Shown piece after piece: positions 25,401 through 61,400 of a stretch of DNA of 64,000 bases. Numbering within the stretch: position 1 is the stretch's first letter; each line of letters starts with the position of its first letter. Source of the DNA: Glaucostegus cemiculus (taxonomy: Eukaryota); assembly GCA_976551045.1 (NCBI GenBank), contig CDPCPM010000043.1:4526001-4590000 (forward strand), given 5' to 3'. A program made the translations under genes and the position numbers. The notes below the pieces were generated by a model, which saw only the letters and a list, made by a program, of their open reading frames with translations, made no database searches and was not told where the DNA came from.

Positions 25401-28400
25401 AGGTAATGTGTATTGGAATGGGTTGTGCTTTTTGGTTATCGTTTGCAGCATATTGATGTTGTTGAAGACCATCATTTAATGCTCACCTGTATTTGTTCCA
25501 GAGGGTGTACCATAACTGTGTTGTGGTAAGGTTATAAATGTATACTGTATCTTGTGTAAGCTGAAGAGTCTGGTGCCTGTTTTGGTCTGTGGGCTGATGT
25601 GGGTGTGACCAGTGCAGTGCAGAATGACCATTTTGTTTTCTTTGTACAGGCACGAGTGACTGCAAACAATGACAAGAACCGCACATACTCTGTTTCCTAC
25701 ATACCCAAAGTTGCCGGACTTCATAAGGTAACTCTTTGACCATTCACAATAGTTCAGGTCATCCAGGATGAGCTGTGTCTTCATCCTCATCTATCTCATT
25801 ATCATGCCCTGTTCTTGCTGTGCACTGGCTGTGAATTACTCCACTGGTATGTTTGGTCATGCTTTGATTCATAGGTCTGGAAGTCCTGCTGGGTTTTCCC
25901 ATCAGTAGTGTTTGGGAGCTACATACCAGAAACTGTTGCATGAAGCAAGCCTACTGATGTCCGCCTTGCTGTTGGTACATCAGGGAACTGTTCTGCCACT
26001 CAGATGGTGATCTGCACTTCAACTCTGCTCCCTGTCCTTGGGTTGTAATCTGGGATGGGAAAAGATCAATCTTGACCTTGAAAGATCCATTTTGACTTTT
26101 CCTTTTAAAAGGAGTGAGAGTGTTTCTATATTCCCCCCCCCCCCCCCCCCCCCCAAAACCTGTTGTGCTAGGAAGTGGCTTCTGACGTCCCATCTGAACA
26201 GGCTAGCCCTGGTTTCTGTGCCTTGTTCTGGGGAACTAGAGGAAACAGTTTGCATCTTGAATTATTGTTTCCAAACTCACTCACGTCATCTCTTAATCTT
26301 CTAAACTTGGTACAACCACTCTAAATCAGATTGAAATCTCTTGATCCCTGTACTCCACAGGAAATTTGGAGATTTGGGAGGAGATTGGGGTTGCTGTGGT
26401 ATACAATAATCAATCTTCTTGCATCAATGCTTCCACCTTTGTGCTTGCTTTCAGGTAACAGTTTTATTTGCTGGGCAGCAAATTGACAAAAGCCCTTTCA
26501 AAGTCCAGATTGGCATGGCTCTGGGTGATGCCAACAAGGTGACTGCTCAAGGCCCTGGACTGGAGCTGAATGGGAACGTGGCCAACAAGCCAACGTACTT
26601 TGACATTTACACTGCAGGTGAGTAGGAAGGTGAAGTGGGGTTCCCCACTGGGACACATGGTGAGGCAGGAGGGAAGTTCTCCACCCCTTGTGTCCATTTG
26701 TCTTTTGAATGTGTCTCTGAAAATGTTTCAATACCGTGTGCTCCTGCACCCCAAACCCCCCCCCCCCCACATGAGTCTAGACCATTTGCCCATTATTTTG
26801 GGTTGATAAGCTTGGTTTACTGACCAACTTGCCTGAGGAATTCCTTTCTACTTTCTCGGACAAAGCCTCTTGAATGACCCTTTAGGTCTCCCTGTAACCA
26901 GCTTTTCTTGGTGTAGTAAAAATCCAGCTTCTCTGATCTCTCTACATACTGAAGTCCCTTGTCCTCCTAGTAAACCACCTCTGCATCCTGATATCCTTAT
27001 TCCCCAAATGAGAACTTGTAAAGTTTCACCAGGCCATCTGTCTCCTTGTATCTGGTATCCTGTTTGCAAAACTAAGTTTGGGACTGGGGAAGGGTTGTGT
27101 TGAATAACCAGGTGCCTTGGAACCCAGCCCTGATTCCATCACTTTTTAATGTTGACTTGAAGCATGAGTTCTGACCATTCTGCTGCCAGCATGTGCACAG
27201 TTACTGACAACAGCCCCTTATCCCCCTTAGGTGCTGGGTCAGGGGATGTTGGAGTCGTCATTGTTGATCCCCAGGGTCGGCGGGATACAGTGGAGGTGAT
27301 CCTGGAGGATAAAGGAGACAATGTTCTCCGCTGCACTTACAAACCTCTGCTCGAAGGTCCTCATGCCATCCATGTGACTTTTGCTGGAGCCCCAATACCC
27401 AAGAGTCCCTTCACCGTCAACATCTCAGAAGGTAAGGTCCACATGCACTGCACATGGCCTGTTATGTGCAAGGAGCCTTTGTCCTTCGCCCATTGCTTAA
27501 TCTTTCCTTCACAAGCAAAGGGTGATGGGGGAAACAGACCAGTAGGGAGGTTAAGAGAGTGGGGGTGTATGGAAGACAGCATGCATGTGGAGAGGGGGAG
27601 GGAGTGTGAATGTGGGGAAACAAGAGGTGGGCAAGAAAAGTGGAAGTTTGGGGATGAGAGTGATGTTCAGAAGTAAGGGAGAATTGAGTGTTAAGGGGGG
27701 ACTGAGTATTTGAGGGAGGTTGTGGGTCATAGGCATGAAGGAGATAAAATGCATGGTTTGTGAAGGTAGAAGGCAGGAGCATGGGTGGGCTCATTGGGGA
27801 AGGAGAAGGGAACAAGCAAGGAATTGAAGGCTGACACTTAGCAAGTCGTGACATTGGATTCCATCGCTGTGTTAATGTCACAAATACAGTTAATTGTGAA
27901 TTGATTATTGCTCTTTTGGGGGGGGAGGGGGTGGGGAATGCAACAATCTTTTGAATGGAGCTTGTGGGTCCCTGCAATAAAGCTCCCACAAGCTGTCTGA
28001 GTATGCATATGTGTAAAAGAATCTTCATTTCTGAAGCCCCCTTTACAACCCTGGGGTGATCTAAAATGTTTTGCAACCAGTGAAGTTGCTGTTTTAACAC
28101 AGGAGTCACAGTAACCAATTGTGCACAGCACAATCTCAAAGAGTGATGTGTTTAATGTTTTCTTTTTGCATATGATGCTGATGCAGTAAGAATATCAACC
28201 AGAACAACAGAAGAGAACTCTGGTCTTCAAACAGTGGTGTGGAACATTTTGCATTCTCAGGAGTGGGTTCCAGCATGGAACCTGAAGTTACTATTTGACC
28301 GGGAATAGGCAGGGTTGCTCTCCTGTGCAATGATTCTTTAGCTTAATTCTGACTTAATTGAAATTTTTCATTGCTGATCTGAACCCATGCTATCAGTTTT

Positions 28401-31400
28401 TGTTTCGATTCTGGGTTATGGTTAGAATGTAATTGCATGATTCTTCAGCACTGTTATCAAAACAAATGATTATAGTATTCTGGGGAGGAATCTCAGAACC
28501 AAGTTTATTATCACTGACGTCATGAAATTTGTTCTATGGCAGCAGTGCAGTGCAAGGCATAAAAATTACTATGTTACAAAAACAAATGGTGCAAAAGAGA
28601 ATAATGGGGTAGTGTTCATGGACTGTTCAGAAATCTGATGGTGGAGGAGAAGAAGTTGTTCCTGAAACCGTGAGTGTGGGTCTTCAGGCTCCTGTACCTC
28701 CTCCCTGATGGTAGTAACGTGAAGAGGGCATGTCCCAGATGGTGAAGGTCCTTAATGATGGATGCTGCCTTTCTGAGGAACCGCGTCTTGAAGATGCTTT
28801 GAATCTAGCTTTGCTATCAATACAAAGTCGGTTTGCAAAGTATTTAACTTTCTAAGTTAGGCAAGCCATGTGAATATTGATTGGCTACTGATATGGGTGG
28901 GAAAGTTTGTTCATGGTGCCTGGCTGGAGACTTAGCTAAACATATGAAGATGCTGCCAGCTTCCATGTCAATAGACTAGCTTTATTTCTAGACGTTTATC
29001 TATTACGGCCATGGGGAACATTAGAATGAGGGAGCATATGTTTTTATTCTCCAAGAGGTGACCAGTTAACTTGGATAAATGAAGCCTGCCTAGAACAGCC
29101 AACTAATTAGTGGTGAACGGATGCATCTCATTGGGAACCTGTTATCAATTTACTCATGCATGTTGAGTAAAATAAGAGCTTTTGTTTTGTGGGATGACTT
29201 GTCTTTCTTGTGGGCTTTGGAAAGATATCCAACAGCATGGTCAGAGTAGTGGATCTTGCTTTCTTGGAGTCACGTTGTTTAACTAAACACTAGGTGGTGA
29301 GGGTGCTCCTTTGGTTGTAGAGGACATTAGCTTAGCTATAAGGGTAAATTGCTGGTGCTGAAGCTTGGAAAATGCCTAATGCACAGTTCCCAAATTGGTG
29401 ACATTGGGCCCGTGTGGAAGACTGGTTAGTACAGAAAGTTGAGATGAAGCAGGACTGATGGTGCTCTCCCTGAGGGTAAGGCTGATTAGAACGGGACAAT
29501 AACAAGGATACAAGATTGTTTGGACCATGGCCAGTTAGAGTTGGGTCTGCTGTGGCAGAAATTTAGAGGCTGAGACTGTGAAAGTGATTTGGAAGCTGGG
29601 GCTGTGAAGATGGTGCAGTGAAGCAGAGATTGGGTGGCATTGGGCACTGCAGCATCTTCAGTCCACTCTGGTAAGAATGGGTGTAGTTTGCAGATTGGAT
29701 CTGTTTCTCCCAACCCCACTTTTCAACTAAGCTGCAGGAAACAGCACAGATCTCTGCCACTCACACCATGTTACATCTCTTTCGTCTTCTCTTCTTCATG
29801 ACTTGTGCCTGGACTGACCTCAGGATCCCCCCCTCCGGCCCAGGCTGCTGCACCAGCTCCAATTATGATCGTTCCTCAGTCCATCCGCACCCCGCCGGCA
29901 GACAAGGCAAAGAAAGCACCGCCCCCTCCTCCCAAACCCAAACGACCACGTTAGTATTGGCCTGAACTGAGTGGCTGCCTGTGCTTGTGTCTGTACGAAG
30001 AGATACTGGTCATGCTTGTGTTTGACAGGTGCTGGTCATGTGTCTGAGGGAATGTGAGCTGTGCTTCTGACAATATCTGTGAACATTGTGCCTCTGTCTG
30101 TACAAGGGGTTGCTGGCCGTGCCTTCTCTGTGCATGGGGGTACCGGCTAATGGGCCAGTCCCAATCCTGGGATGGTCATTGGCTCCATGAGTCAGTGCAA
30201 GTCTTTTGTGGGCTGGAGGGTGGTTAGTGGCTTCTCATTCCTGGTCTTTACTAACTTGGTCATTAGCTATAGTGCTGTTGTTCTGGGGTCGGCAAGTTGG
30301 CTGCCATGTTTTGCTGGAATGGCTCTGTGCTCCTGCAGTTCTTGAGTGGAATGGTTTGTGGATCACTGGATAATCCTGTGCATTCCTTTTCCAGAATTGC
30401 TTCTCCCACAGTGTATGGAATTTTTATGGTTAATCGAGATGGAATGAGGTCATGTGATTTAAAATCTTGATCAATTTAGTCATAGTTGTACTGCATGGAA
30501 ATGAGCCCATTTGGCCTAACCGGTCTATTTGACTAAGATGCCCCATTCAAACTCACCCCATTTGCCAATGTTTGGCTCGTAACCTTCCACACCTTCTGTA
30601 GCCATATACCTACCCAACTGTCTTTTCAGAAGTTGTAATGTACCTGCCACAACCACTTCTTCTGGCATCTCATTCCACATGCATACCACCCTTCATGTGT
30701 AAGATTATATTAAAAAAAATTCCTCAAGTTCCCATTAAATCTTTTCTTCCCTCACCTTAAACCTATTCCCTCTGGTTCTTGATTTTCCCCAACCTGGTGG
30801 GGTAAAAGACTGAGTGCATTCATACACCTCTGAGATTGCCTGTGTCTCCTATGCTCCAAGGAATAAAGTCCCAGCCTGTTCAACTTCTCACTATAACTCA
30901 GTTCCTCAAGTTCCTGGCAACACCATTGTAAATCTTTTCTGCATTCTTTCCAGTTTAATAACATATTTCCTATAGCAGGGTGACCAAAGCTGAACACAAT
31001 ACTCCAAGTGCAGCCTCACCAGCATCTTGTACAACTGCACCACAACCTCCCAACTCTCATACTCAGTACCCTGACTGATGAAAGCTAATGTGCCAAAAGT
31101 TGCATTCACCACCCTGTCTACCTGTGACTCCACTTTCAGGGAATGATGTACAAGGCCCCTCTGTTCTACAACACTGCCAAGGGCTCTGCTGTTCACTTTG
31201 AAAATCTGACCTTGATTTGACTTTCCAAAATGCACCACCTTGCACTTCCCTGAATAAAACTCCATTTGCCATTCCTTGGCCCACTTACTCAGCTGATTGA
31301 GATCTTCCTGTAATTTTTGATAGCTGCCTTGATTGTCCACTATACCAGCTATTTTAGTGTCATCTGCATTTTGGCCACTGTACATGGTTTTCCTTTCCAG

Positions 31401-34400
31401 GACAGGAAGGTGGTTTGTCATCTGTATGTGGAGAGGTTGTCCCCTCCCTCTATCCTGGGTCATTGATTAGGAGCAGGAACCCCTGCTGATTTCTCATATC
31501 TCTATTCCATTGTTCTATGCAATAAGTGGGTCCAGAAAGCCCCTCCATCAGAATAGAGCCTGTAGTCTGAGGTATGTTTTTGCAGCAGAAGCAGCTGGTT
31601 TGTTCGCTTGCTAAACTGGCAAGTTCTCTGATTCCTCTTGTAACAGGAATCCTGTAGGTGTGGTAACAGTGATGTGACTGTGGGCTGTGGTTGAGCTCTC
31701 TGTGGATCTGACTGATGGCTTGACATTAACCTGAATCACATGTGTTTTCTGCCAGCGTGCAATCCCAATGCATGTCGAGCCTCAGGGAGAGGTCTGCAGC
31801 CCAAAGGAGTGCGAGTTAAGGAGGTGACCGACTTCAAAGTCTTCACTAAAGGAGCTGGCACTGGGGAGCTGAAAGTTGTCATCAAAGGACCTAGTAAGTT
31901 GGCTGGTAGGGATTGTGTATTCCAGCTTGGCTGGGGACGTGGTTGGGAAGGGGGGGAGCAAGGGAGGGGGTGCTGTAAATGTTGATCCTGGGTTAAGTGG
32001 TGGAATACATGTTCGCTGTTGTGTCTGTGGGTCAGTTCCAGCCTACAGCCTACAGTGGATCATTCATCTTCCTGTTCTGCTCACTGTGCGTCTATCCATG
32101 GATTATATGCTGAGTCAACACACACACAGTGCTGTTGGATCTCGGCAGGTCTGGCAGCATCTATGGAGAGAAAGAAACAGTCAATGTTTTGGATTGAGAC
32201 CCTTCATCAGGACTCTGGTCTCAACCTAAATCGTCAACTGTTTATTTCTCTCCATAGATGCTGCCAGAGTTGCTGAGTTCCTCCAGCACATTTTCTGTGT
32301 ATTGCTCCAGATTCCAGCATCTGCAGAATCTCTGTCTTGTGTGCTGAGTCACTGTCTTTGTGAATGATTGATCTGAATTTTTTTTCCCATCACACCAGGG
32401 ATAGGATTGGCAGTTACTGTCCTATCCCAACAAGTGCTCTCACTGATGTCCTCTGCTTAATGCACTTTGGCTGGTGGATTATGGTGACTGGAGTTCTGTT
32501 CAGCCCTAGTCCTCTCAGCAAAGTTGTGGTGGAAGTCTTTGGCTAGCGGTGATCTTGGATGTAATGCTGCTGTTGTTGCTGCACCTTTCAATCTGATCCT
32601 CATTGCCAGTGAGCAGAAGCTCTGGATTCACTGACTAACCAGCAATTAGTTAGTCAGTGAATCCAGCAACCAGCACCTGAGGAGATGCAGCCACTGAAAC
32701 AACCAGTAAAGGACGAGCAATCGGCAGACATCACTCACTGGTCTCCATTTATTTTCCTCCAGAGGGCACAGAGGAACCTGTGAAGGTTCGGGATGTTGGT
32801 GACGGTGTCTATGAATGTGAATATCATCCGGTGATTGGAGGCAAATACGTGGTGACCATCACCTGGGGTGGTTATGCTATTCCAAGAAGGTGAGTCGCAT
32901 TTAGGAAAATACTCCTGGTTCATTCAATTTGGTCACAGAATTAATTTGTTGATGTTGCAGTTTTGGTTAATTCCAACAGAAGGGTCTCTCCCCCTGATTC
33001 CAGTTCTACTTGTCTATCTTCCTCTAGGATCTTAAATCAATCTTCCATTTTCAAACAACAACACATGTTGAGCAGAACACTCGGAAATTACCTTCCTCTT
33101 TTCTCTCCACCGCCCCCCCCCCACCCCCAACCCCAGTGTAATACCATGGAACCTTTTAGTGCCAATGTTAATTGAAAGTACAGCACGAGGTGTATACTGA
33201 CCTGTGTGTTGCTCCCTCAGCCCCTTCGAAGTGCAAGTTGGACCTGAAGCTGGTGCTCAGAAGGTGCGAGCCTGGGGACCGGGACTGGAGACTGGTGTTG
33301 TGGGAAAGTCGGCGGATTTTGTAGTGGAGGCAATTGGGACTGAAGTTGGAACACTAGGTAAGTGCTGTCACTTCCTGTGATAGTAGTGAGGCTTCACTTT
33401 AGGGCCAACACTAGTCTGGATCCTAGCTCCAGCCCCTGTTTATTCACTGCACCTTCTCTCTGTTCAATCTACATTTAATTGAGGGTAATAAGGCTCTGAC
33501 AAAATATCAGGGTGGACTTTTTCTGTGTCTGACCTGCACTGGAAATGTCTGATGGCATTTGGCCTTCACTCTGAGAACCACGTTGTAATTTTCTTCTCCA
33601 GGTTTCTCCATTGAAGGTCCTTCACAGGCGAAGATTGAGTGTGATGATAAAGGAGATGGATCATGTGATGTACGATACTGGCCCACTGAGCCTGGTGATT
33701 ATGCTGTGCATGTAATTTGTGATGATGAAGATATTAAGGATAGTCCCTTCATGGCACACATCCTGCCAGCAAACAATGAAAGCTTCCCAGAGAAGGTGAG
33801 TGTAGAGTGCAGGGCATGAGTAGAGTAAATGTGTGGCATGGAGTCAGGGCATCAACAGGGGTCACTGTGATTAGTCTTTGAGACTTTTAAATTTAGTGCA
33901 GGGAGCACATTTTGAAATCTGCAAACGATACAAAAATGATATCAAAAAATGAGTGAAATATTTTGGGATGGGGAGGTGTATGGTGAATGCAATGGAACTG
34001 TGCACTTAGAAGTTTTGCTGCATCCCTGATCAAATCATATCCTGAGCATTGTAGTCCAGGGCTCTGGATTTTACTATCAACCTATTAGCTTTGGAAGAGT
34101 GCACACATTGCAAGAATATGACCAAAGGTTAAGTTCTGAGGAGAGATTGCATTAATATGGCTTGTATTCTCTAGAGTGGAGAAGATTGGATTTGGTAAGA
34201 GGTTTTGGATTTTTTAACCTGCTAGAGAAATCCCTGCTAATAAGGGTGCATAGGATAAAGAGCAGAATGTTTAAAAACCCTAGGCTACTTGTTCCTCTGC
34301 CAATAGTACTTTACAATGCATCCACCCAAGATGATCAACAAGACCTGGTTTTACAAAGGTAACAAAGTTGTAGTGTATGTGTCCTTGGTGCTGCCATCCA

Positions 34401-40400: not shown

Positions 40401-43400
40401 CCAGGGTCCCCCTTCAAGGCAGACATCAAACCAGTCTTCGACCCGAGCAAGGTCACAGCCAGTGGCCCGGGGCTAGAGCGCGGCAAGGTTGGTGAGGCAG
40501 GAACTTTCACTGTCGATTGCTCCAAGGCCGGGGAGGCTGACCTGACTATTGAGATCATCTCTGAGACCGGCGTGAAGGCGGAGGTTCACATTCAGAACAA
40601 TAGCGATGGGACCTATACCATCACCTACATCCCACCGTTCCACGGCATGTACACCATCACCATCAAGTATGGCGGGCACGCAGTACCCAAGTTCCCAGCT
40701 CGCGTCAGGGTTGATCCAGCTATTGACACGGCAGGAGTGAAGGTGTTCGGACCAGGAGTAGAGCCTCGTGGTAAGGGAACCATCTGTAGAGGCAGCCACT
40801 GTTTTGCTCTTTTGCTACTACAGGAAAAGCTCACTTTGGGAGAAGTGGATCTCTGAGACAATGTGATGGAACAACCAGGCAATTAAACAGCTTGTAGCAT
40901 TGCTTTTTGTGTGGGTGGGGATCTGTGGGTGGGGAAGTGGTGGGAAAATGGCAGGTCTTTCAGGGGGAGCTGACCTCTCTGTAGGAATCTGATTTCAAAC
41001 AAAATATCAAGGAACTTGTACATGTGTGGGAAGCACTGGGTTGATTGTGGGTGTTGGGGACTTGATAGTGCAGATGTTCAGAGCAACAGGATCACTGCAG
41101 TGGTAAGGTAAAGAGAAAAATCTGATCCCATTCCAATTCTCATTTTTAGGGGTGCTCCGGGAGGTCACCACTGAATTTACTGTGGACTGTCGATCTGTTA
41201 ACAAAACTGGTGGGAACCATGTCAAGATTCGTATAGTTAATCCTTCTGGGGCCATGACTGACAGTTACATCAAGGACAATGGTGATGGAACCTACCGTGT
41301 GGAGTACACAGCCTATGAAGATGGTGAGTAATATATGCCACCTCCATTTCAGGTTTTTAATTTTTTTAATTTCCTTACAACAGTCCTGGTGATTTGGTGC
41401 TCATTTCCTGGCAAAGTAATCCCAACTGCTTCTGATCAACACCAGCCTTCCGCAAACCTGTTTGTCTCTGAGGACGTGGGGCAATTGTGGTCCGAGCTAA
41501 TGGACTTGCTGGGGGGGAAGAAAATTCCAGTTTGTCATCCAGGACAAATTCCATTCTGGAGACTATTCCCTGTCTCCTAGGTTTGCTCCTTCAGATTTGA
41601 GTTGCTAATGTGAGAATGTTGCCCTTCCCTTTTTTCCTTGGGTTGCAAGATCTCCTGATCTCTCTTCCAAGTGAAGATGAAGGATATCTCCTTGACTTTT
41701 GGAAGCAAAGTCCTTGAGAAATGGTGAGGAGATGATTTTCCCCAGATGTGATTGCACCTTGCCACGAATCATTCTTCCACAAGTTTGTTCACATTTCCCC
41801 TGACCCTTGATGGGCTCTTGGCTACTGTTGGAACAGTTTTAGTTGCTGGAGCTTCCCCATACCATGCGTTCCTTTGGGATGTGAGGCAAGGGGGGCCCCT
41901 CTGTGGTGGATTTTAAAGGGTAAAGTCCAGGGTTTATCGAGGAAAAAAATCTTTTTGTGGGCAGTTTTGAGATGGGGTGCATTTTGCTGTCAGTCAGCAT
42001 TGCTGATCTGTGCTTTTATAGTTTACCTTTTATATGTTGCTGACTCTTTCAGGAATGCACATGATTGAAGTGCTCTATGATGATGTCCCAATCCCCAAGA
42101 GTCCATTCAGAGTTGGAGTCACTGAGGGATGTGACCCCAGCCGTGTCCGGGCATATGGGCCAGGCCTGGAAGGAGGTCTAGTCAACAAACCGAACCGGTT
42201 CACAGTGGAAACCAGGTAAGCTGTGACTGTAAATGGTAAAGACTAGGTATACAACGGGTCATTTGCTTGATCTCTTCCACAGTCCATCTGGACTCTATCT
42301 AACCATCAATTCACCAGAAGGAAAGTTTTTGTTATTTCAAAGAAATGAAAGAAACCTTGACATTATTGGCTTATGCTGGCTTTCACTGACCATACTAGGA
42401 TCTTGTGTTGCCTGTCTGTACCAATCCCAATAAGCATTATCCCCCTCCATCCTGAGAGATAACTCTGAATGTCCCTTTTGCTGACCCACCATTGCCCCCT
42501 TGCCTCAGATCATTTCTTTGGCTGTGCTGGGAAACCCCTGATCCCATGGTTTGGGTGGGTGAGGTGGTTTTGGTGGGTTAGGGGAGGTGGAAATGCCATT
42601 GATTATCTAACTGATTTTAGACATGACCTCTTACCTGTATCTTGTGCAAACACATTACCCCTCTCTCTCTCTTCTCTCCCTCTTTCTCCTCAGGGGTGCA
42701 GGCACTGGAGGCCTGGGACTGGCCATTGAGGGTCCCTCTGAGGCAAAAATGTCCTGCAAGGACAACAAGGATGGCAGCTGCAGTGTTGAGTATATCCCCT
42801 TTACTCCTGGAGACTACGATGTCAACATAACATTTGGTGGGCACCCCATTCCAGGTGAGCTCAGCCCAGCTACCCACTGAGGGCTACCTTGTCCTAGTGA
42901 GACAGAATCAGTTCAGTGTATGATGCATTGGGAGCAGAATCACAGGGCACTTAAGGACTGGGCTCTGCTTTGGTTCTCTCACACTGCCTCTCTGGCTTGC
43001 TCCCTTTGTGCCTCTCTGGCTTGCTCCCTTTGTGCCTCTCTGGCTTGCTCCCTTTGTGCCTCTCTGGCTTGCTCCCTTTGTGCCTCTCTGGCTTGCTCCC
43101 TTTGTGCCTCTCTGGCTTGCTCCCTTTGTGCCTCTCTGGCTTGCTCCCTTTGTGCCTCTCTGGCTTGCTCCCTTTGTGCCTCTCTGGCTTGCTCCCTTTG
43201 TGCCTCTCTGGCTTGCTCCCTTTGTGCCTCTCTGGCTTGCTCCCTTTGTGCCTCTCTGGCTTGCTCCCTTTGTGCCTCTCTGGCTTGCTCCCTTTGTGCC
43301 TCTCTGGCTTGCTCCCTTTGTGCCTCTCTGGCTTGCTCCCTTTGTGCCTCTCTGGCTTGCTCCCTTTGTGCCTCTCTGGCTTGCTCCCTTTGTGCCTCTC

Positions 43401-46400
43401 TGGCTTGCTCCCTTTGTGCCTCTCTGGCTTGCTCCCTTTGTGCCTCTCTGGCTTGCTCCCTTTGTGCCTCTCTGGCTTGCTCCCTTTGTGCCTCTCTGGC
43501 TTGCTCCCTTTGTTTCTCTGTAACAAAATCATTAAGGCTTGTTTAAAAACATGTAATTGTTGATTGGCCATGTGGCTCTTCCAATCTGTTCAACCATACA
43601 TTATTGACAGCTGAATGTCCATAATCTATTCCTCTTTCCAGCTTTATTCCCAAATGCCAGATTCCTTTGTGTCCAAAGATACATCAAGCTCTGTCACAGA
43701 TCTAGTATGAATCTGTATCTGCAGCCTTCTGGAGTTAAAAAAAAAAATTCAAAGCTTTCCAATTCTTTTGCAGAGGTTATGGTGGGGGTGGGGTGGGGGT
43801 GTGGTGGCGGGGGGGACAAAGCTCCTTATCTCTGTTCAAAGTGGCTACAACCTTGTGTGGCGTCTATGCCTTGAACTGGCTCTCCAACCAGGGAGGGGGT
43901 GTCTTACCACTTGTTGATCATCATCTGTGTTTTTGAGATCATCTTCATTCTTCTAAATTATGGAGAATATGGGTCTATCCAACCTGTCTTGAATCATCTG
44001 GGTGTACTTTTTGTTTCATCTCCTGAAAGTACAGAAACACAAACTGTACACTGGTTTACAGTTTAATTGAAGCTGTTGTTGATATAAAGCAATCTCCTGG
44101 GGTTGTACATCTGCTCTCCATAGAGCCTGTGTCATAGAACATAGAACAATACAGCACAGAATAGGCCCTTCGGCCCATCAAGCTGTGCCATCCTACAAAC
44201 ATCTCCCAAACTAACTCTTTCCACCCTCATATCCTACTATTCCACATTCTTCCATGTGCTTATCTAACAATCTCTTAAACCTGTCCAACGTATCTGCCTC
44301 CACTACCACCCCAGGCAGTGCATTCCATGCACCAACCACTCTCTGGGTGAAAAACTTCCCTCTGACATCTCCCCTATACTTTCCACCAATTATCTGAAAG
44401 GCATGCCCTCTCGTCTTGAGCATCTGCGCTCTGGGAAAGAGGCGCTGACTATTAACTCTATCTATTCCTCTCAATATCTTAAACACCTCTATCAAGTCCC
44501 CTCTCATCCTCCTCCTCTCTAATGAGTAGAGCCCTAGCACCTTAAGCCTCTCTTTATATTCCATACCCTCCAATCCAGGCATCATCCTGGTAAAACGCCT
44601 CTGCACCCTCTCCAACGCCTCCACATCCTTCCTATAATGCGGCGACCAGAACTGAACACAATAGACCATCAGCCTTTATTCAGTATGCAAGTTGCTGGGG
44701 AAATCGATGTGGTGTGACACTCGTTTTGTGTTGATAGGAAGTCCCTTCCGTGTGCCAGTGAAGGAGTTGGTCGATCCAAGCAAAGTGAAGTGCACGGGCC
44801 CTGGATTGGGCACTGGAGTACGGGCACACGTACCCCAGACGTTTACAGTCGACTGCAGCAAAGCTGGGCTAGCACCACTCGAAGTGCTGGTCCTCAGGCC
44901 TACAGGTAAATCTTGGACTTTGCTGCTGGCATGTGCTTGTTTGAGGTTAGCTGTAAAACCTAAAGCCTAGGGATGTATTTTGAGGGAGGAGGGTGGGAGT
45001 CATTCTGTGGGAGGGGGTTGGGTTGATGAGGGACATGCTCTGAGTGGATACCTGCTCAGAGAGGGGTCATTGTTTCTAGAGGAAGTGTTTACTAGGAAAA
45101 CAGCATTGCTCGGTGTTTGAGTGGGGGATTGGTGGAAAGACAGCACTGGTTCTGAGGGATTGGATGAAGTAGAATCGGTTGCCGTTGGGTGAACTTTGAC
45201 CCCATTTGTATTGTCCAGGTGTATCGGAGCCAACGAAAGTTATTGATAATGGAGATGGAACGCATACTGTTCATTATACCCCAACCACGGATGGTCCCTT
45301 CACTGTTTCCGTTAAGTATGCAGACCAGGAGGTTCCACGCAGGTGAGCATCAGCTATTGCATCTGTCTCTGACTCTCCATATTTACTGGAGAATCTGGAA
45401 AAGTTTGAGATGTTCAAAATTTTGAAAGAAGACAATGCACATTTAACATGACTAATGAAAAGCCAGAGGAAATATGAGATTTTTATGCACAAGTTGTGAT
45501 CAGGACTGCTCTGAAGCTGATTCAATAATGCCTCACGAAAGGGAACTGGATAAATATTTAAAGGAGGAGAATGTGTAGGGTGTTGGGGTAAGAGCAAGGA
45601 AGAGGAATTAATTTGAAGCTGTGCTACTGCTAGCGAGGTCTGGTCAATTGAGCCATCATCCATTTGCACTGACTCATTCTCTGGCTCTAAGCACTTGAGA
45701 ATTGTCTGCATTATACTTGATATGCCATATCTCTGACCATTCCACCAGTAGTCCGTGGCTATTTCTTAATTGTTGAGATTTCTTAATTAGTGTCATCCAC
45801 AAACTTTGAAATAATTAATGGAATGATGCATATTTAGACCAAAGAAATAGGCCACTGAACCCAACTGGCTTGTGCTACACACAAGCCATCATCCATCCCT
45901 TTCCATCCAGCTGCAGCAACATGTCCTCTATATTTTTTTTTTAACAACTTGTACAGTATACACTCTGCTTGTACCAGGTTCCACGCTAAACATTGTCTAG
46001 GAAAGAATTCCTCCTGAACTTCGGATTTATTAGTGTTTTGTATTTCAGGCCCTGTGTTCAGCTTCCACTGCGAGGAGAAGCCTCTTTTTTTTTCCTGTCC
46101 AACACTGAAGTCCTTTTCATAAACGTTAAGACCTATATGGTAGAAATTTCTCGTCCATGAACTAAATGTTTGATTTAGTAGTGAACGCACATTGAAATAT
46201 ACTTCTGAAATTTGGTTCTATTAATTTTGTTTGCTCAAAGTTTAATAAGAAGATTAATTTCTACTCCATGACATTAATCTAGTTTGTTTTTTTTTGAATC
46301 CCAGCCCTTCAATCTTTCCTGCAAGATGCGATCTTGCAGTTCTTGTTTTAATAACACTTTTTTTATTATTGTTTGCTCTTCCTCAATGGAGGTCAGGGGA

Positions 46401-49400
46401 CAATTCTCAAGTGTGGCCCTACTAAGATCCTATACAAATTTAATACCTGCATTTCATTCCTCTCCATCTGAAAAGGTACTCCAATGCTTCAGTTATTTTA
46501 ATGGTCTTAACTGGGGTTGTTACTGTGATCTTGAATTTGTACCTCCAGATGCTTGTTTCTCTACTCATTTACACATTTATTTTCACATGTGTGAAGTACC
46601 TTTCTTATTGTTCCTGTCAATGTACCATCACACACTTTACACTGACCTGCATCAGGCAATGCATTAATATATCAAAGGGTAAAGGAGCTGATAACGATTG
46701 AACTGTACTAGTGTATCTTCCCTTCAGACAGAAAACCATCCATTCACTAATATTCTATATCCAGGCTGCTGCTACTTTACCCCACAGGAGTTAATGTTCC
46801 AACATGTCTGTGGTATCTTATCAAACATGCTTTTATTTTCCCCCAAAGTCTACGTACACAACATCTGCATTATCCTTGTCAACCCTCTATTTCCCCTGTA
46901 ACAAAGCCATGTTGGCTTTCATTATTAAAACCCACTTTCCCGAGAGACTATTTATTTTGTTCATTATTTTCCTCCCCCAGTCCCTTCAAGATCAAGGTTC
47001 TGCCGACTCATGATGCCAGCAAGGTGCGAGCAAGTGGGCCAGGACTGAATGCCTCTGGAGTGCCAGCTAGTCTCCCTGTCGAGTTCACTATCGATGCCAG
47101 GGATGCTGGCGAAGGACTACTCACTGTCCAGATCATTGTAAGTCTGGGCCACATCTTCTACCATCTAGGTCAATAGGCAGTATGACCAGGGCCAGAAGTT
47201 TCTTCTACAATCTGTGCTTTAATGAGACACTGACTGATCTGAACTTCCATTAATTGACACTGCCTGGTTCTAGGCTTTGATCACCTTCTGAAAGCAGTTC
47301 TTGTCTTGGAACAGCACAAATTTCCAGTGACCTACCCACGCCCCCACCCCCAACCCCTTACATGGTTGTGTTGTTCCTAATCCTTGACAATGCTCTGCTC
47401 TAAAGTTAAATAGAATGTGACTGTATTCCTAAAGTACAACCTATGCTTGCTGAACAAATAATTGAGAGAATGTTTAGATGAAGTTACAATCTGTGATTTC
47501 TGTCTGTGTTCCAGACTTTGTTTATAGTATAGTAAGTACTTGGACCAAATATTTATCCCAAACCTTAAACCTGTTGCTCATATATAGAGATGAAGTTCGT
47601 TCTCGCTCTCCGTGTGCATGGGTGTAAATGTGGGCAGTGTACGTAAACCCTTGATGGGAAATGGGCTAAGGCCTAAGTTCTCTGCAGTTTGATATCAGTA
47701 ATGTTGACTTGTCCATTTAGGATCCTGAGGGCAAACCAAAGAAGGCTAACATTCGTGATAATGGAGATGGAACATACACAGTGTCCTATGTCCCTGATAT
47801 GACTGGACACTACACCATTACTATCAAATATGGAGGTGATGAAATCCCCTACTCACCATATCGAATCCACGCCATTCCAACTGGAGATGCCAGCAAGTGT
47901 CTGGTAACAGGTACAGTCAGCGGTTACGTCCATCTAAGTGTCTGCACAGGGAGAAGTTGAAGTAAATAAATGGCCAGCCACTGGAGGCTCCTCCTCTGGG
48001 ACAGAGAGAGGGATCTTGCAACCGGCTGCAGTGATTGTGTGGAAATTGAGAAAGGAGGTGAAGGTGGATCCCTGGAAACCTCGAACTTTTGGGTTCTGTA
48101 GACACGTGGGCCGGGGGTTGGTGCAGAGGCAGGAGGCCCTGGGACTGCCACTTGGGGGGTGGTGTAGTGTTGCTTCAGTTACTCCTGTTCTCACTATGCC
48201 CAGGGATTCCCATACCAACAGGGACTATCGTCACTCTGGGAATGTAAACGCAAAAAGTTGCCATCATTATCAAAGCCTAGCTAAACTCTTACACTGAGAC
48301 GCTAGCCATTCATTGGGATTTGGGAATATACTGTAGATCCCTGGGGATATCACTTGTTGGATCTCAACTCTGTCTACTACTTTCTGACCAATTGGAATTT
48401 TGGAATTAGAGCAGGGATGGCTGAAGTTTGAGGGTTTGAGCCATTAAGTAATTTTGCTGTACTTTGTAAGCAGTTTTGGAGACATGCAGTTTGTGGGTGC
48501 CAGCCTGTGTCCCAGCAGCTTCATGAACTGATGCCACAAGAATCCAGGGATTTATTTCAACCTCTCCTGCCTGTCTTGTGTTTTTTTTTTGCTAACGTCA
48601 ATTAATCTGTGTTTTGAGTTTATGGGTGACAGTTTCTAACCGGCTGCTCTCCCCCCACAGTGTCCATCGGCGGCCATGGACTAGGTGAGTGACCATCCTC
48701 CAAACTCCTCAGTTCTTCAGCCTCTATAAACCAGGAAATCCCAAACCCCACCACCCACCTCCCCAGGGGGTCAGTGATCTGGAGCAAGAGCCCTGGCTCA
48801 TTTATTTCCCCCCCCCCCCCCCCCCCCAAATCAAACTAGAGTCAACAGAACTTTTGTAGCTGGATTCAGAACCCCAGCTGATTTTGTTTCTTTTTTCCCC
48901 AAACCAGGGGTCACTGTGGCCCAGCTGTTGTCTTGGTTGAGGTGACAAGACAAATGTAACTGGGCCTTAAAGATTTGTTTCTGTTTACCCATCGTCTAAT
49001 GGGTCAGTCTTGCTGCCCATCACCACCACCACCACCTATCCCCACCTCTCTCTGGTCCTGCCCTGCTGCCCTTCACTGAGTATCTTCTAGTTTTATTTGA
49101 TGTATTGTGTTGGGAGATGGAGCTGCTCCTGGTGCCGCTGTCTATCTCAACCTGGTCTGCGGGCTGTTCTAATGCTCATTGCCAACTCTGTGGGTCCTAA
49201 CTGGTGATGGAGTCCCACCCCACAAAAGCAACGTGTCCATAACTTGTCATCACGTGTAGAACTTGGGTTGAATTGTACCACCCATTAACCATCACACCCA
49301 CTTCACTTACAGGGGCAGGACTTGGTCCAACCATCCAAATTGGCCAGGAGACGGTCATAACAGTGGATGCCAAGGCAGCTGGCAAAGGGAAGGTCACTTG

Positions 49401-52400
49401 CAAGGTCTCGACCCCTGATGGAGCTGAGCTAGATGTTGATGTGGTTGAAAATCAAGATGGAACATTTGACATTTATTACACGGCACCAGAACCTGGCAAA
49501 TATGTCATTACCATCCGCTTTGGTGGGGAGCTTATACCTAACAGCCCATTCCATGTGGTGGTGAGTAACGCTAACCAATCAGCATCATCACTAGGTCACA
49601 CTATTAGTGTATGTTACCCTGATAATTAAATGATAGGTGTCACGTGATAATCATCCATAGAATTTGAAAGGGGGCACAGAAGTGCATATGCATGCACCTG
49701 CAAATACTACGTGAAGGCAAAACAAGTTTGGACAACCATTAAATTTGAGAGTCCCCTATTTATTACGGGTTGAGGCAAAAGTTTAAGAAGAAGAACATTA
49801 GACTAACCCTTTTTGTAAAGTGTTTGGAATCTAATAGTTGTGGTGGTCAATTCCAATTTTTAGGAGGGTTGGTAAGACTTTGGAAAGGATTTACGAGCCA
49901 TTTAAAAATGGTACCAGGGATGAGGGACTTCAGCTATGTGGAAACGTTAGAGAAACTCGAGCTGTACTCTTGAGCAGAGAAGGTTAAGGCAGGGTTTGGA
50001 AGAAGTTCTCAATGTTATGGATATTCTTGACTGAGATATGGAGAATCTTCCTCTGGCTGGAAGATTGATGAGAACATCCAGATTTGGGGGCATGAGGCAA
50101 AGATTCCAAGGGGAAAATAAAGAATTGTATTTCACACAGTGATGTGGTGTAGAATTTGATTTTTAGTAGTTGAAGCAGATTCACTAACGTGCAAAGGGGA
50201 ATTGCATCGCAATTTGAAGGGGAATTAAGGGGCAAAGTGCGAGGCTATGGAAAATATCAGGGGTTGGACTATGTGCTTAAGTAATTCCTGCAACCATATG
50301 CCAACTAACTTATGTACTATTGTTCTATGATTTGATGTGATTTTTAGAATCAATGTTGTCTTATCATATTATTACAACTAATCCAAAGGAGGAGTTCCCT
50401 GTATGAAGCTTTTGAATTCCTTGGCTTATGGGTCTAAAATGGGGCCTTGCGAGTGTAGAGGCCCAAATGGAGAATAGAATTGTTGTAGGCATGAAAGGGA
50501 GCTTGGAATCAAAGACTGGTTATGTATGAGGAGAGAGATGGGATGTGGGGGAGAAAGGGAGGTGGAATCTTTATCTATCTAATTTAATGTCCCTTTATTC
50601 TTGGCTCTACCAACAGATGGAATAGTTTTTTGTTATCTACCCAATCAAATTCTTTTAATCAACTTAAACACCTCTAATAATAACCCCTTAATCACCTATA
50701 CTTGAGGGAATATAGTCTTTCCTTGCAATTTGACTCCAAACTAATGTATACATTTTTATTTTCCTTGGGTGGTGTCCAGAACTGAATTCAGTACTGCTGC
50801 TAGGATCTGACCAGTCCTCTGTTTAGCTGTAATGTAACACACTGCTATGTGTTCCAGTCCTTCTGAGATGATGTGTAAATATTCTATCAACCTTTGTGGT
50901 AACTTGTATCTGCACTAGTTCTGTGATTCTTCTGTACCCATTCAATACCAAATGCCTTGAATTCAATCAGTGTTACAGTCCATGAAGCCACAATCTCGAC
51001 ACTTGGATCCCATGTATAGAATGTAGAGTGTAAAACTGCCATGAATGGAGAACATGGCCTCTGTCCTGGTATGGATATCTGTGCCTCAGTATTTTGAGTC
51101 CAGCTGAATGGGTGTTTTTTCTCCTCACCTCCATTGCCACCCTCTGCACAAACCTCTTCGGACCATTTACAGATGGGACATGTCACCCTGAACATCAAGA
51201 TGGAAGGAGTAGTTCGGAGGAATGCTGGCTTATAGAGCCGCAGTTGACTTCCCCAAGCCTTGTCTCTTAGCTTCTTGCACTGCTTCTATACTTACCCCAC
51301 CCCCAACGCCTTTTGCATTTGATTTTTCAGTTACAAGTTTTGAGAGTTGTGTGTTGGACTTGTGTTTTAACTTCTAGCTTGCTCCAATCATAGGCCTGCG
51401 ATGCTATCCCCATCATTGAGGAGCCCTGTGATACCTTGCAGCTACAGCAGCCCTACGTGCCTTGCCGTGCTGGCTATCCACCACACTGGGTATAAAATTC
51501 AACCACTGACTACTCTCTCCTCAAATAGGACTTCCACTCTATCCTTCCTCTCCTCTTTGTTTCTCAGTTTCCACAATGTTATTTCTAATATTTTATTCTT
51601 TTTCCTCTTTTTGGTCAATTTATCATTTTTTATAGTCTGCCTTGTACTCGTGGTCTTGATCTGTCTCTTCCTGCATTCGTTCTTGAATCTTCTAGTCTCT
51701 AACCACAGGCTGGAGTACCGTCTTGCCTCTTTGCTCTGCAGAAATGCTCGTATTTGACTTTTTTTTTTCAGTAGCCAGTTCTCTTTCATTATGAAACTCA
51801 TTAGATGAAGTAAAGCTCCTGATAAATCTCTATACGTTTTCTGCCCACTGAACACTTGGACAGTTCTCTAAATTAATCTTGGTCACGTTTGCTGGTTGAG
51901 TTTCCCCACTTGGCAGGTTGCATGTGATTAGGATACCCATCAGAAACAGTCACTTGATAAACACAGAAATATAACATTTTATAAGAAAAAGGGAGAGAAT
52001 ACATTTCTGCCCCTGGGATTAATTTACTCCAAAGGAACCTGGGTTCCACCAACGGCTCGTGCATTTTAAATCTGGCTCAAATCTCTACTCCTTCATTTTA
52101 AATAATTCCAGGGGGAAAATATTGTACAGATTTGTCAGGGCAACACAGTATGTTCAGTTTGCTGCTTTGTTTGGCCACTTGGATTAACTAGTGAATTTAT
52201 AATTGCAAGGATCAAATTGTGTTCCTCAAAGGAACACCCTTCCTACACTGAGACAGCCAGTCAGCACCAGAGTCTTTCAATTTAGTGCCCAGAAACCAGG
52301 ATGAGCAGAGGTGGGATGTAAATGACCACTTGTTTATACTCCATTAAATCCCTGTCTGTCCCAAAGCTACTTTTCTCCTTCCTTCAAGTTCCAGGCAAGG

Positions 52401-58400: not shown

Positions 58401-61400
58401 TGCCCTATGAGTTTGAAGTAGTTATCTCAAACATTAACCTGCCCCACTTGTTGTTCAAGAGTATTACCATCTCTAAATGCATCAACATCCTGGGTTTACT
58501 GTTGACTTGAAGTACAAGTGGACCACCCAGAAATGAAGCAGGAGCAGGCCACTTGGTCTCTTGCATCTACTCTGTCATTCAACAAAATCTTCTGCCTTGC
58601 GGCCACTTTTCCACCCTATCCCTTGCTTCCTCCAACATCCAAAATGCTATTGAGTTCTGTTTTGAATGAAATCAAGGATTGAGCTCCACAGCTCTCTGGG
58701 GTAGAATTCCATGGATTCACCTCCCTTTTAAGTGAAGAGGTGTGTTCCTATTTGAGTCATAAATGGCTTACTACCTATTTTGAGACTATGACACCCTACT
58801 AGTTTTTGAGACTTGCTTGTTTAAGAATGAAGGCATGTGGAGAACAGCACTTGCCTCTAAATGATGCAGAAATCCTAAATTTCAACACAACTGGTTGGGA
58901 ATTTCCTGATTACACAGCTGTGTTGGACTTTCCATGAACTTGTGCATTTCTCAGCATTGCACAGAAATCTGCATACTGTTCCTGTACCAAACTATACCTG
59001 GCACAGATAATAAAGTGAGCACATTCATTTGAATGGAGAAGAATGGCTGTGAGGGAGAAGGGTTATCTACATTTTGAATTAATTGAGTTAGAAATAAGAA
59101 ACGAAAGCACGAGTAGGCTATATTGCCTCGAGGTGGTTCATCACCACCACCTTAAGGTCAATGAGGGAAGGGCAATAAATGTGGGCCTTGCCAGAAATAA
59201 CCATGTCTTGTATAAGCAAATGCACCTGATTTTTAAATGTCTAACCTTAATTGCCCTTAAACTAAGTGATTTGCCACTTCAAAGAATATTTAACAGTCAA
59301 CCATAATGCTGTGGGTCAAGAACAGCATATAACTAGCCTAACGGTGGCAGATTTCCCCAGTGAATGGTACTGAAGTAATAGTTTTCTTGACTACTTGGTA
59401 GTTTCATTGTCACCATCACTGCTGCCAAGTTTTGTTTTATCTAATTTGTAGATTTCAGTAAACCAGCTGTCCTGGGTCTTTTAGTCTCTGTGCTTTAACT
59501 GTTGTATTAACAATCCAATCCTATTAGACCCTTAATGAGCCTTCAGCAGTCTTCCTATGTTGATTTGAAGAAGATATAATCGGCAGTTCACAACTTAGTG
59601 GTCATTAGTCGTATCACTGACTGATATTCAGTGACACGTCTGGCTAGTTGAGATGAACTCTTGAAAACTGAGAGCAAGATTGGTAATAGAAGGAACTGTT
59701 TGGGACTTTTTTTAAACATTGGTTCATTGATGGGTTAAAACAGAATGTTGGGGTTTGTATGGCAGCTTGGAAAGGTGTTTTGTAAAGATACAAATGTAGG
59801 AGTCGGTCACTTGCCTTACAAGCCTGCTCTGCCATTCTATAAGTGTGCAACTGATCTGGTTGTAATCTCAGTTATACTTCCCTGGCTACCATTTTAGTAC
59901 GATTGCATCCCTTTGCTCATCAGGTATTTATCCACATCTACCCCAAATGTTCAGAAATTATGCTTCCATGATCCTTTGAGGAAGAGGTCCAAAAACTAGT
60001 GACCCTGGAACACATCGCCTCATCTGTGTTGAGGGTTGGCCATTTAAACAGTGATTGCTAGTTCTAGATTCTCCCACAAGAGGAAACCTCCTCTCCACAC
60101 ATATTTCAGGATACTGTATGTTCCAATCACATTGTCTCTCACTCTCCTAAACTCAAGTGGATGCAAGTCTAGCTTGTCCAACATTCCTCATCAGACAAGT
60201 AAATGTTGGACTAGTTAACATGAACTGCTTCCATCCATCCTTAAGGGAACCAATACTGCTCAGAGTACTCCCTGATGTGGTGCCTTTTGCCTGGTAACTG
60301 AAGTTAAACCTCATTTTTGTACTCCATTCACCTCTCAATAAACAATAACAACCTGTTAACTTTCCTGATTTACTTTCTGTAGCTGCATACTAACCTTTTG
60401 TGAACCAGACCCAGATCCCTCTATCAGAGCTCAGCTGTCTCGCTCCATTTAGATGTGCTTTTATTGTTTTCTGCCTAAATAGACAATATTGCATTCCCCC
60501 CTGCCACACTTTGCCTTTTTTGCTCATTGGTTCTGTCTTCCTTCATCTTCCCCCACCTGCCCCCCTTTTTCTTTTAGGAAATTGGTTCCAGATGGTGTCC
60601 GCACAGGAGCGTTTGACCAGGACCTTTACACGCAGTAGCCATACCTACACACGCACGGAACGGACTGAGATCAGTAAAACACGCGGTGGCGAAACTAAGA
60701 GAGAAGTGAGAGTGGAGGAATCCACACAAGTTGGAGGGGACCCTTTCCACAATGTATTCGGAGAGTTCATGGGCCGTGAAAGCCTGGGCTCCTTTACCAA
60801 TATCCCACGGGCTGAAGGTGTGCATCTGACTGTGTTTAATGGAGGGGGTAACTTGATATTTGAAAAGGAAGTGATGAACCAATATTTGAGGTGCTATTGC
60901 CATATGATTTAAGAAATTTTCTAACTTTGTTCTTTCTGTGCAGTGGAAGTTGGAGCAAAGGAGATGACAGCACAGGTCACCAGCCCATCTGGGAAGATGG
61001 ATGATGCAGAAATTATCGAGGGAGACGACAGCACTTACAGTGTGCGGTTCATACCGCAAGAGATGGGCTCTCATACTGTCAATGTTAAGTATAGAGGTCA
61101 ACATGTTCCCGGCAGCCCCTTCCAGTTCACTGTGGGACCACTGGGCGAGGGAGGATCCCACAAAGTTCGAGCTGGGGGCTCTGGTTTGGAGCGTGGTGTG
61201 GCTGCAGTGCCAGGTGAGTTTTTGATTAATGAAACTGGAGATGAGTACAGAATGGGTGCTATTTGGGGAAGGGCAGGAATGGGGCCAGTCTCTGGTGGAG
61301 GAGGGAGGAATATAGGTGTAGTCCAGGGATGGGGATGGAGAGAGACTGATCAGGGGAAGAACAGAATGGCGGTGTAAATTTATTGAGGATAGAGCAGATT

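What the first reader, a model, noticed from the sequence alone, without database searches (positions are those of the whole stretch)
29824..29949. Hidden proline-rich cassette exon between Ig repeats 2 and 3 of filamin-C (possible extra hinge / SH3-ligand module)
Seen: a 126-nt stop-free segment in intron 8 with cag| acceptor and |gttagt donor, phase 1-1 exactly matching the intron. Inclusion gives ...[53 protein letters not shown]... (15 of 42 residues Pro). It retains CpGs like the true exons and is missed by the ORF track in this frame. Established: PxxPxR (PPKPKR) is a class II SH3 ligand, poly-Pro binds WW/EVH1/profilin, and SP/TP are proline-directed kinase sites. From memory, canonical human FLNC joins exon 8 directly to 9 and has only hinges H1/H2. 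I recall similar inserts in predicted fish FLNC isoforms but cannot verify this. Inference: a regulated flexible linker and adaptor-docking site in rod 1, lost or unannotated in mammals.
Basis: partly seen in the sequence, partly recalled or inferred. Interest (0 to 1): 0.8.

Follow-up and report, generated by a model that had tools for sequence, protein, structure and literature searches.

The report
Ancient optional exon in filamin C
The muscle gene filamin C of this cartilaginous fish (likely a ray) carries a 126-base exon that database gene models from sharks to lizards either include or skip; it adds a predicted floppy, proline-rich linker that likely docks filamin C onto the SH3 domains of the muscle proteins nebulin and nebulette.

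Summary
Real. Window 29824-29949 is a phase 1-1, 126-nt exon between FLNC exons 8 and 9 (Ig repeats 2 and 3). It is not hidden. Database FLNC models carry it in chimaera, sharks, rays, ray-finned fish including zebrafish, lungfish, amphibians and squamates. Both included and skipped forms occur in 17 of 21 species for which I held two or more models. A teleost contig keeps the same unusual donor (GTTAGTAT). AlphaFold leaves the insert unstructured. The nebulin/nebulette consensus PPxxxPKP is in 78 of 102 distinct inserts (shuffles 2.9); this window has only the minimal PxxxPK. Best reading: a spliced-in flexible linker with a nebulin-family SH3 ligand. Binding and tissue use are untested. No RNA run was listed, and mammal, bird and turtle status is unresolved. 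Ten paper searches found no description, and the scan had not noted it on other DNA.

The parts
27231..27431 (+). FLNC exon 8 (most of Ig repeat 2), ends in phase 1, consensus donor AAG|gtaagg
29770..29823 (+). Acceptor region: TC-rich pyrimidine tract set back from the acceptor, then cag
   Evidence: regulatory role inferred
29824..29949 (+). Cassette exon, 126 nt, phase 1-1, adds 42 residues between Ig repeats 2 and 3
29826..29858 (+). Variable Pro/Ala spacer (first 11 residues; 2-5 of 11 identical outside elasmobranchs)
29859..29903 (+). Conserved block [15 protein letters not shown]; Thr-Pro is a likely proline-directed phosphosite
   Evidence: PQ[SAT] 95 of 102, TPP.[DE] 83 of 102; function inferred
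29919..29939 (+). PPPPPKP: meets the minimal nebulin/nebulette SH3 consensus PxxxPK; an Ala stands where the full PPxxxPKP has its first Pro
29950..29965 (+). Non-consensus donor CAC|GTTAGTATTGGCCTG; the first eight intron bases are identical in teleost contig L036
29966..30199 (+). Downstream UG/YGCY-rich intron stretch with one TGCATG near 30131; candidate muscle splicing enhancers
   Evidence: weak, no formal test
31756..31893 (+). FLNC exon 9 (start of Ig repeat 3)

Best explanation
This is an old filamin-C exon that gene models from sharks to lizards either include or skip; when included it inserts a predicted disordered 42-residue linker between Ig repeats 2 and 3, whose PxxxPKP end likely binds the SH3 domain of nebulin-family Z-disc proteins (nebulin, nebulette, LASP). 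Shown here: the exon, its frame, its conservation from chimaera to snakes, both isoform types in databases, and no match in the stretch upstream of exon 9 in either paralogue of this genome. Predicted: the insert is disordered, so inclusion would loosen the actin-binding head plus Ig1-2 from the Ig3-5 unit. Inferred: a weak donor with UG/YGCY elements lets muscle splicing factors set inclusion. The polyproline-Lys motif would lie on the acidic RT loop of the nebulin/nebulette SH3 as the XIRP2 peptide does, tethering filamin C near thin-filament ends without Xin as a bridge. Phosphorylation of the conserved Thr-Pro-Pro ten residues upstream might tune this.
For: Exon and both isoform types: (17 of 21 species with two or more models held show both). 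Codon and donor conservation. Disorder: pLDDT under 50 and no secondary structure over residues 270-307 of the Heptranchias protein, flanked by Ig domains at 80-90. The solved FLNA Ig3-5 unit aligns from residue 312, right after the insert. Motif: Eulitz 2013 (PMC3810769, passages) define PPXXXPKP, minimal PXXXPK, with the XIRP2 peptide PPPTLPKPKLPKH, and say the Leu in the usual Pro position makes no specific contact. PPxxxPKP is in 78 of 102 distinct inserts (shuffle mean 2.9, max 10) and PxxxPK in 94 of 102 (28.6, max 42). Squamate inserts read PPPTLPKPRKP or close. They keep PxxxPK 6 of 6 while losing class I, class II and PxxPxKP, 0 of 6 each. Five skipped FLNC isoforms checked have no PPxxxPKP anywhere. 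This genome encodes nebulin- and nebulette-like SH3 domains with the acidic RT loop. FLNC-specific: one match in the genome and no profile match upstream of exon 9 in either paralogue.
Against: The window's own insert and 10 of 11 chondrichthyan inserts lack the first Pro of the full consensus, and Eulitz show that a near-match peptide (KKKPQLPPKP) did not bind. The 102 inserts are related and mostly teleost, so the shuffle test shows conservation, not partner identity. The squamate change is one evolutionary event. 8 of 102 inserts lack PxxxPK, 6 of them from the more divergent teleost type, and some teleost inserts are cut to 19-30 residues. TPPx[DE] and the I-x-I-x-P-Q block are as conserved as the SH3 motif, and this model does not explain them. 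Isoform evidence comes from computed gene models whose read support I did not see.
Confidence: 0.5

Rival explanations
1. The linker is an SH3 ligand, but for another family: cortactin or Abp1-type, sorbin/vinexin, Grb2-like or BAR-protein SH3 domains using class I, class II or PxxPxKP registers.
For: The window's insert matches class II and PxxPxKP, found in 94 and 83 of 102 inserts (shuffles 50.0 and 9.3). Cortactin, Abp1 and sorbin SH3 domains are among the next PDB relatives of the nebulette SH3. The cortactin consensus is recalled, not checked.
Against: All three patterns are absent from 6 of 6 squamate inserts although the exon stays conserved. Half of the shuffled inserts match class I or II by composition alone.
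Confidence: 0.2
2. The exon is a purely mechanical third hinge: it frees the actin-binding head and Ig1-2 from the Ig3-5 unit, and its sequence matters only as a stiff, hydrophilic, protease-exposed spacer.
For: Predicted disorder. Length mostly 40-44 residues. An unrelated insert of about 83 residues sits at the same junction in an amphioxus filamin, so the junction tolerates spacers.
Against: A spacer does not need 18-29 of 30 identical residues between a ray and groups as distant as snakes while its first 11 residues drift freely.
Confidence: 0.13
3. The key element is a phospho-switch at Thr-Pro-Pro-x-Asp/Glu (Pin1-type WW binding or an FBXW7-type degron) that marks the exon-containing filamin C for turnover or isomerisation.
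For: TPP in 98 of 102 and TPP.[DE] in 83 of 102 inserts (shuffle 34.4 and 1.1), kept in 6 of 6 squamates.
Against: The strict FBXW7 pattern (recalled) matches only 30 of 102 (shuffle 15.0, max 27), and the window has Asp rather than Glu or Ser at +4. No phosphorylation data were seen. It does not explain the Pro-Lys-Pro end.
Confidence: 0.12
4. The hydrophobic I-x-I-V stretch folds back as a beta-strand onto the ligand-binding CD face of a neighbouring Ig repeat and autoinhibits it.
For: Alternating hydrophobic residues are conserved ([IV]xPQ pattern 84 of 102). Filamin ligands bind the CD cleft (PMC7216277 passages).
Against: The best AlphaFold model with 69 aligned sequences shows no strand in the insert. 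The model lacks most of Ig5 and has pTM 0.30, so this is weak.
Confidence: 0.04
5. The segment is not used in this species (a pseudo-exon or a propagated annotation artefact).
For: Weak donor; many chance AG..GT segments in the intron.
Against: Intact frame and splice sites, 38 of 41 residues identical to the annotated Hemitrygon exon, exon-like CpG, synonymous-biased change and a conserved donor.
Confidence: 0.02

Closest known systems
Filamin-C isoforms in NCBI/UniRef gene models (e.g. XP_072922819.1 Hemitrygon, XP_048409865.1 vs XP_048409867.1 Stegostoma, XP_009298480.1 zebrafish, XP_031754944.1 vs XP_031754946.1 Xenopus tropicalis, XP_062839468.1 vs XP_062839470.1 Anolis)
   Same: Same exon, position, frame and optional use.
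   Different: Nothing essential. The models are numbered isoforms without comment, and the insert has no Pfam family.
Filamin hinge 1 (FLNC exon 31; Ig15-16)
   Same: Frame-preserving cassette exon encoding a linker between Ig repeats; present in this window too.
   Different: Different junction. The new insert is longer (42 against 32 residues), Pro/Lys-rich, and was found only in FLNC here. It is not listed in the passages of two FLNC reviews.
FLNC Ig20 insertion (82 residues in human; myotilin-binding, Z-disc targeting)
   Same: FLNC-specific extra exon that adds a docking site.
   Different: That one lies inside a repeat of rod 2 and is well described. This one lies between repeats near the actin-binding end and is a short-motif linker.
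[quoted passage not shown]
   Same: Consensus PPXXXPKP, minimal PXXXPK; squamate FLNC inserts share the eight residues PPPTLPKP with XIRP2.
   Different: Binding is shown for Xin/XIRP2 and only inferred for FLNC. Elasmobranch inserts meet the minimal consensus only. No homology is implied.

Membership tests
Filamin C gene | Actin-binding domain plus Ig repeats most similar to FLNC, with the Ig20 insertion | tested here: met
   About 95% identity to Hemitrygon FLNC over 42 matched pieces; Ig20 insertion exon at 60578-60817
Conserved cassette exon | Length a multiple of three, symmetric phase, AG/GT ends, no stop | tested here: met
Conserved cassette exon | Orthologue under codon-level constraint in distant species | tested here: met
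   5 synonymous to 1 replacement in 10 codons (small sample)
Conserved cassette exon | Both included and skipped transcripts exist | tested here: met
   At gene-model level only: 17 of 21 species with two or more models; reads not seen
Conserved cassette exon | Junction reads in this species, by tissue | not testable with these tools
   No run available to lay on the window
Filamin hinge (H1/H2 type) | Unstructured segment between two Ig repeats | tested here: met
   Prediction only: pLDDT under 50 at residues 270-307
Filamin hinge (H1/H2 type) | Calpain sensitivity and added flexibility | not testable with these tools
   Needs proteolysis, SAXS or EM
Nebulin/nebulette SH3 ligand | Minimal consensus PxxxPK | tested here: met
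   Window yes; 94 of 102 inserts
Nebulin/nebulette SH3 ligand | Full consensus PPxxxPKP | tested here: not met
   Not met in the window (Ala at position 1) or in 10 of 11 chondrichthyans; met in 78 of 102 inserts overall
Nebulin/nebulette SH3 ligand | Partner SH3 with acidic RT loop encoded in the organism | tested here: met
   L008 and L007
Nebulin/nebulette SH3 ligand | Measured binding | not testable with these tools
   Needs ITC or peptide array
Canonical class II SH3 ligand (PxxPx[KR]) | Motif present and conserved | tested here: inconclusive
   Present in the window and 94 of 102 (shuffle 50); lost in 6 of 6 squamates
WW (PPxY) or EVH1 ([FL]PPPP) ligand | Motif present | tested here: not met
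   0 of 102 and 1 of 102; patterns recalled

The most novel reading that the evidence does not exclude
Filamin C has had, since the origin of jawed vertebrates, a splicing switch that gives it its own Xin-like ligand for the nebulin/nebulette SH3. This would allow a direct filamin C to thin-filament-end link during myofibril assembly or repair. If the exon also survives as a minor or unannotated exon in mammalian intron 8 (not testable here; I put that extra step at about 0.3), it would be an overlooked coding target in a major cardiomyopathy gene.
Probability: 0.35. Interest if true: 0.72.

Novelty: new variant of a known kind. Interest (0 to 1): 0.48.

Why it matters
FLNC is a leading myopathy and cardiomyopathy gene, and the reviews I read describe two isoforms differing in hinge 1. 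A third optional segment next to the actin-binding head, kept from chimaera to snakes and present in zebrafish and Xenopus models, adds an unexamined variable to fish and frog filaminopathy work. It makes a cheap, sharp prediction (peptide binds nebulin-family SH3; skipping removes the site). The exon itself is already in databases, which caps the surprise. What seems new is the conservation pattern and the named partner.

Tried and rejected
RNA evidence: no RNA holder was listed for window 27232-32000, so no reads were laid; this is no evidence either way. Complex prediction of the insert with the nebulette-like SH3 was not available, so there is no verdict. Mammals, birds, turtles and crocodylians: none with the insert among the 120 best of 924 hits. 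Insert-free proteins begin to appear near rank 113, so a well-conserved annotated insert in a cluster representative should have shown. But 90% clusters hide isoforms and no mammalian FLNC was retrieved, so I count this as a weak hint only. Three bird fragments (P0175, P0311, P0360) show the skipped form only. The metagenome scan returned 5 loci, 4 teleost-like and 1 invertebrate-like, with no amniote. The 50%-representative search (best 150 of 4843 listed) added an amphioxus insert but no mammal. Both ESM Atlas searches gave no usable hit. Pfam has no family for the insert. Literature: ten searches found no paper describing an exon between FLNC repeats 2 and 3; one search was swamped because 'FLNC' also means full-length non-chimeric reads. 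Most subscription journals are not in the library. Supplement searches for Flnc in PMC5577920 and PMC13478325 saw one file each and no hit, so splicing tables I could not see may list the event. Passages of PMC12458930, 10.1101/2024.10.05.616792, PMC1851013 and PMC12613645 were not relevant. The first codon table was one codon out of register and was redone. Scripts stopped part-way and were completed. Rejected readings: WW/PPxY, EVH1 and long-polyproline ligand; a fold-back strand (weak). Earlier scan notes: none by sequence, two unrelated notes by words.

Full report
Observation. The segment is as described: 126 nt at 29824-29949, cag acceptor, donor CAC|gttagt, phase 1 at both ends, matching exon 8 (ends 27431) and exon 9 (starts 31756). 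Inclusion replaces one Ala by 43 residues, a net gain of 42. The gene is an intact-looking filamin C, about 95% identical to Hemitrygon FLNC over 42 matched pieces and 91-92% to Narcine, Leucoraja and Stegostoma, so the organism is likely a ray. The peptide has a single match in this genome. CpG content is exon-like, but the splice signals alone are weak evidence: 92 in-frame stop-free AG..GT segments exist in this intron and 3 pass a loose filter.

Conservation settles it. The 41-residue peptide found a Heptranchias FLNC model with the same insert (1 hit among 1580 candidates). Two region searches (33 hits of 205 candidates; best 120 of 924 hits) and two multi-protein cluster look-ups returned the insert at the same junction in chimaera, sharks, rays, bichir, sturgeon, paddlefish, gar, teleosts (two sequence types, which I take to be the two paralogues), lungfish, caecilian, newts, frogs, anoles, geckos and snakes. 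In a hand-made list of 38 species, 21 had two or more models among my proteins and 17 of these show both included and skipped forms; the trout pair may be two gene copies. These are computed gene models, which by general knowledge usually rest on RNA-seq; I did not see their support. Against 16 representatives the last 30 residues are 18-29 identical, while the first 11 are 2-5 identical outside elasmobranchs. A teleost-like contig, L036, begins inside the exon. Ten codons show 4 identical, 5 synonymous and 1 replacement change, and the odd donor continues GTTAGTAT in both species. A profile of the inserts finds nothing between exons 8 and 9 of the paralogue on C275, nor between exons 7 and 9 of the paralogue on C1074, whose exon 8 was not mapped.

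Structure. AlphaFold on the Heptranchias fragment with 69 aligned sequences gives folded Ig repeats on both sides and pLDDT under 50 with no secondary structure over residues 270-307 (pTM 0.30). The solved FLNA Ig3-5 unit aligns from residue 312, so the insert separates the actin-binding head plus Ig1-2 from that unit. Without it the repeats are joined directly.

Which motif matters. I extracted inserts from 213 proteins with both anchors; 166 had an insert. I left out the unnamed representatives P0168-P0317, three odd models (a crocodile FLNB and two extended predictions) and six inserts under 36 residues, which left 102 distinct inserts. Against composition shuffles: PPxxxPKP 78 (mean 2.9), PxxxPK 94 (28.6), PxxPxKP 83 (9.3), class II 94 (50.0), class I 89 (49.8), TPP.[DE] 83 (1.1), PQ[SAT] 95 (19.8), PPxY 0, [FL]PPPP 1. 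The sequences are related, so these counts measure conservation only. [quoted passage not shown] The crystallised peptide is PPPTLPKPKLPKH, and its Leu sits in the usual Pro position without specific contacts (PMC3810769, passages). Squamate inserts read PPPTLPKPRKP or close; 6 of 6 keep PxxxPK, and 0 of 6 keep class I, class II or PxxPxKP. This is one evolutionary event, but it removes every rival pattern I tested and leaves the nebulin-type one. The genome encodes nebulette- and nebulin-like SH3 domains with the acidic RT loop. Against: the window and 10 of 11 chondrichthyans have only the minimal motif. A near-match Xin peptide did not bind in the paper. 8 of 102 inserts lack PxxxPK, 6 of them from the divergent teleost type. 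The TPPx[DE] and I-x-I-x-P-Q blocks need their own explanation.

Splicing control (inferred). The donor is weak. The 250 nt downstream hold 8 YGCY (2.9 per 250 elsewhere in the intron), 10 TGTG/TGTT (4.5) and one TGCATG (0.35); the 250 nt upstream hold 16 TC-type words (6.4). L036 has 12 YGCY against 7.0. By recalled positional rules for MBNL, CELF and RBFOX this fits muscle-promoted inclusion, but no significance test was made and no tissue data were seen.

Mechanism. Shown: exon, frame, conservation, optional use in models, FLNC specificity in this genome. Predicted: disorder. Inferred: muscle-regulated inclusion, binding of the Pro-Lys-Pro end to nebulin-family SH3, and a tuning role for the Thr-Pro site. 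I give the whole 0.5; the exon being real about 0.97. Rivals are another SH3 family (0.2), a pure hinge (0.13), a phospho-switch (0.12), a fold-back strand (0.04) and non-use (0.02). They are not fully exclusive.

Known or new. The exon is already in database isoforms, so it is not hidden. Passages of two FLNC reviews mention only the hinge-1 isoform pair and the Ig20 insertion (PMC7216277; PMC7318287). Ten full-text searches found no description of it, within a library that lacks most subscription journals and most supplements. Whether mammals, birds, turtles and crocodylians keep it is open: none appeared with the insert in the 120 listed hits, which is a weak hint of loss, divergence or missing annotation. 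Verdict: a new variant of a known kind (an optional filamin linker exon), interest 0.48, higher if binding or a mammalian copy is shown.

Noticed in passing
window 48661-48684: 24-nt cassette exon encoding VSIGGHGL; included or skipped in Hemitrygon models. It resembles the 8-residue optional exon of FLNA (recalled).
   Followed up: partly
window 51394-51489: Hinge 1 exon, 96 nt, 32 residues; all four combinations with the Ig2-3 exon occur in Xenopus tropicalis models by length and sequence.
   Followed up: partly
window 60578-60817: FLNC Ig20 insertion exon. Some Anolis and Paroedura models skip it, so this Z-disc targeting insert may itself be optional in lizards.
   Followed up: no
P0170 (Branchiostoma lanceolatum filamin), Ig2-Ig3 junction: An acidic insert of about 83 residues at the same junction, unrelated in sequence and without PxxxPK; possibly independent use of the site.
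   Followed up: partly
P0163 (Crocodylus porosus 'Filamin B' model), Ig2-Ig3 junction: 21-residue Pro-containing insert in one of four models held; may be a prediction artefact.
   Followed up: no
P0062 residues 1632-1670 (Channa argus): A further 39-residue optional segment in a teleost FLNC; not looked for in the window.
   Followed up: no
P0111, P0129, P0147, P0151-P0154, P0157, P0159, P0165, P0167: In the more divergent teleost type the insert erodes: shortened to 19-30 residues in some groups, and Gly-rich with loss of PxxxPK in others, suggesting relaxed function after duplication.
   Followed up: partly
window about 42980-43500: Intronic minisatellite with a 24-nt unit, about 20 copies, open in two frames.
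   Followed up: no
window 29857-29949: An in-frame internal acceptor would give a 93-nt form that drops the variable spacer but keeps both conserved blocks; use unknown.
   Followed up: no
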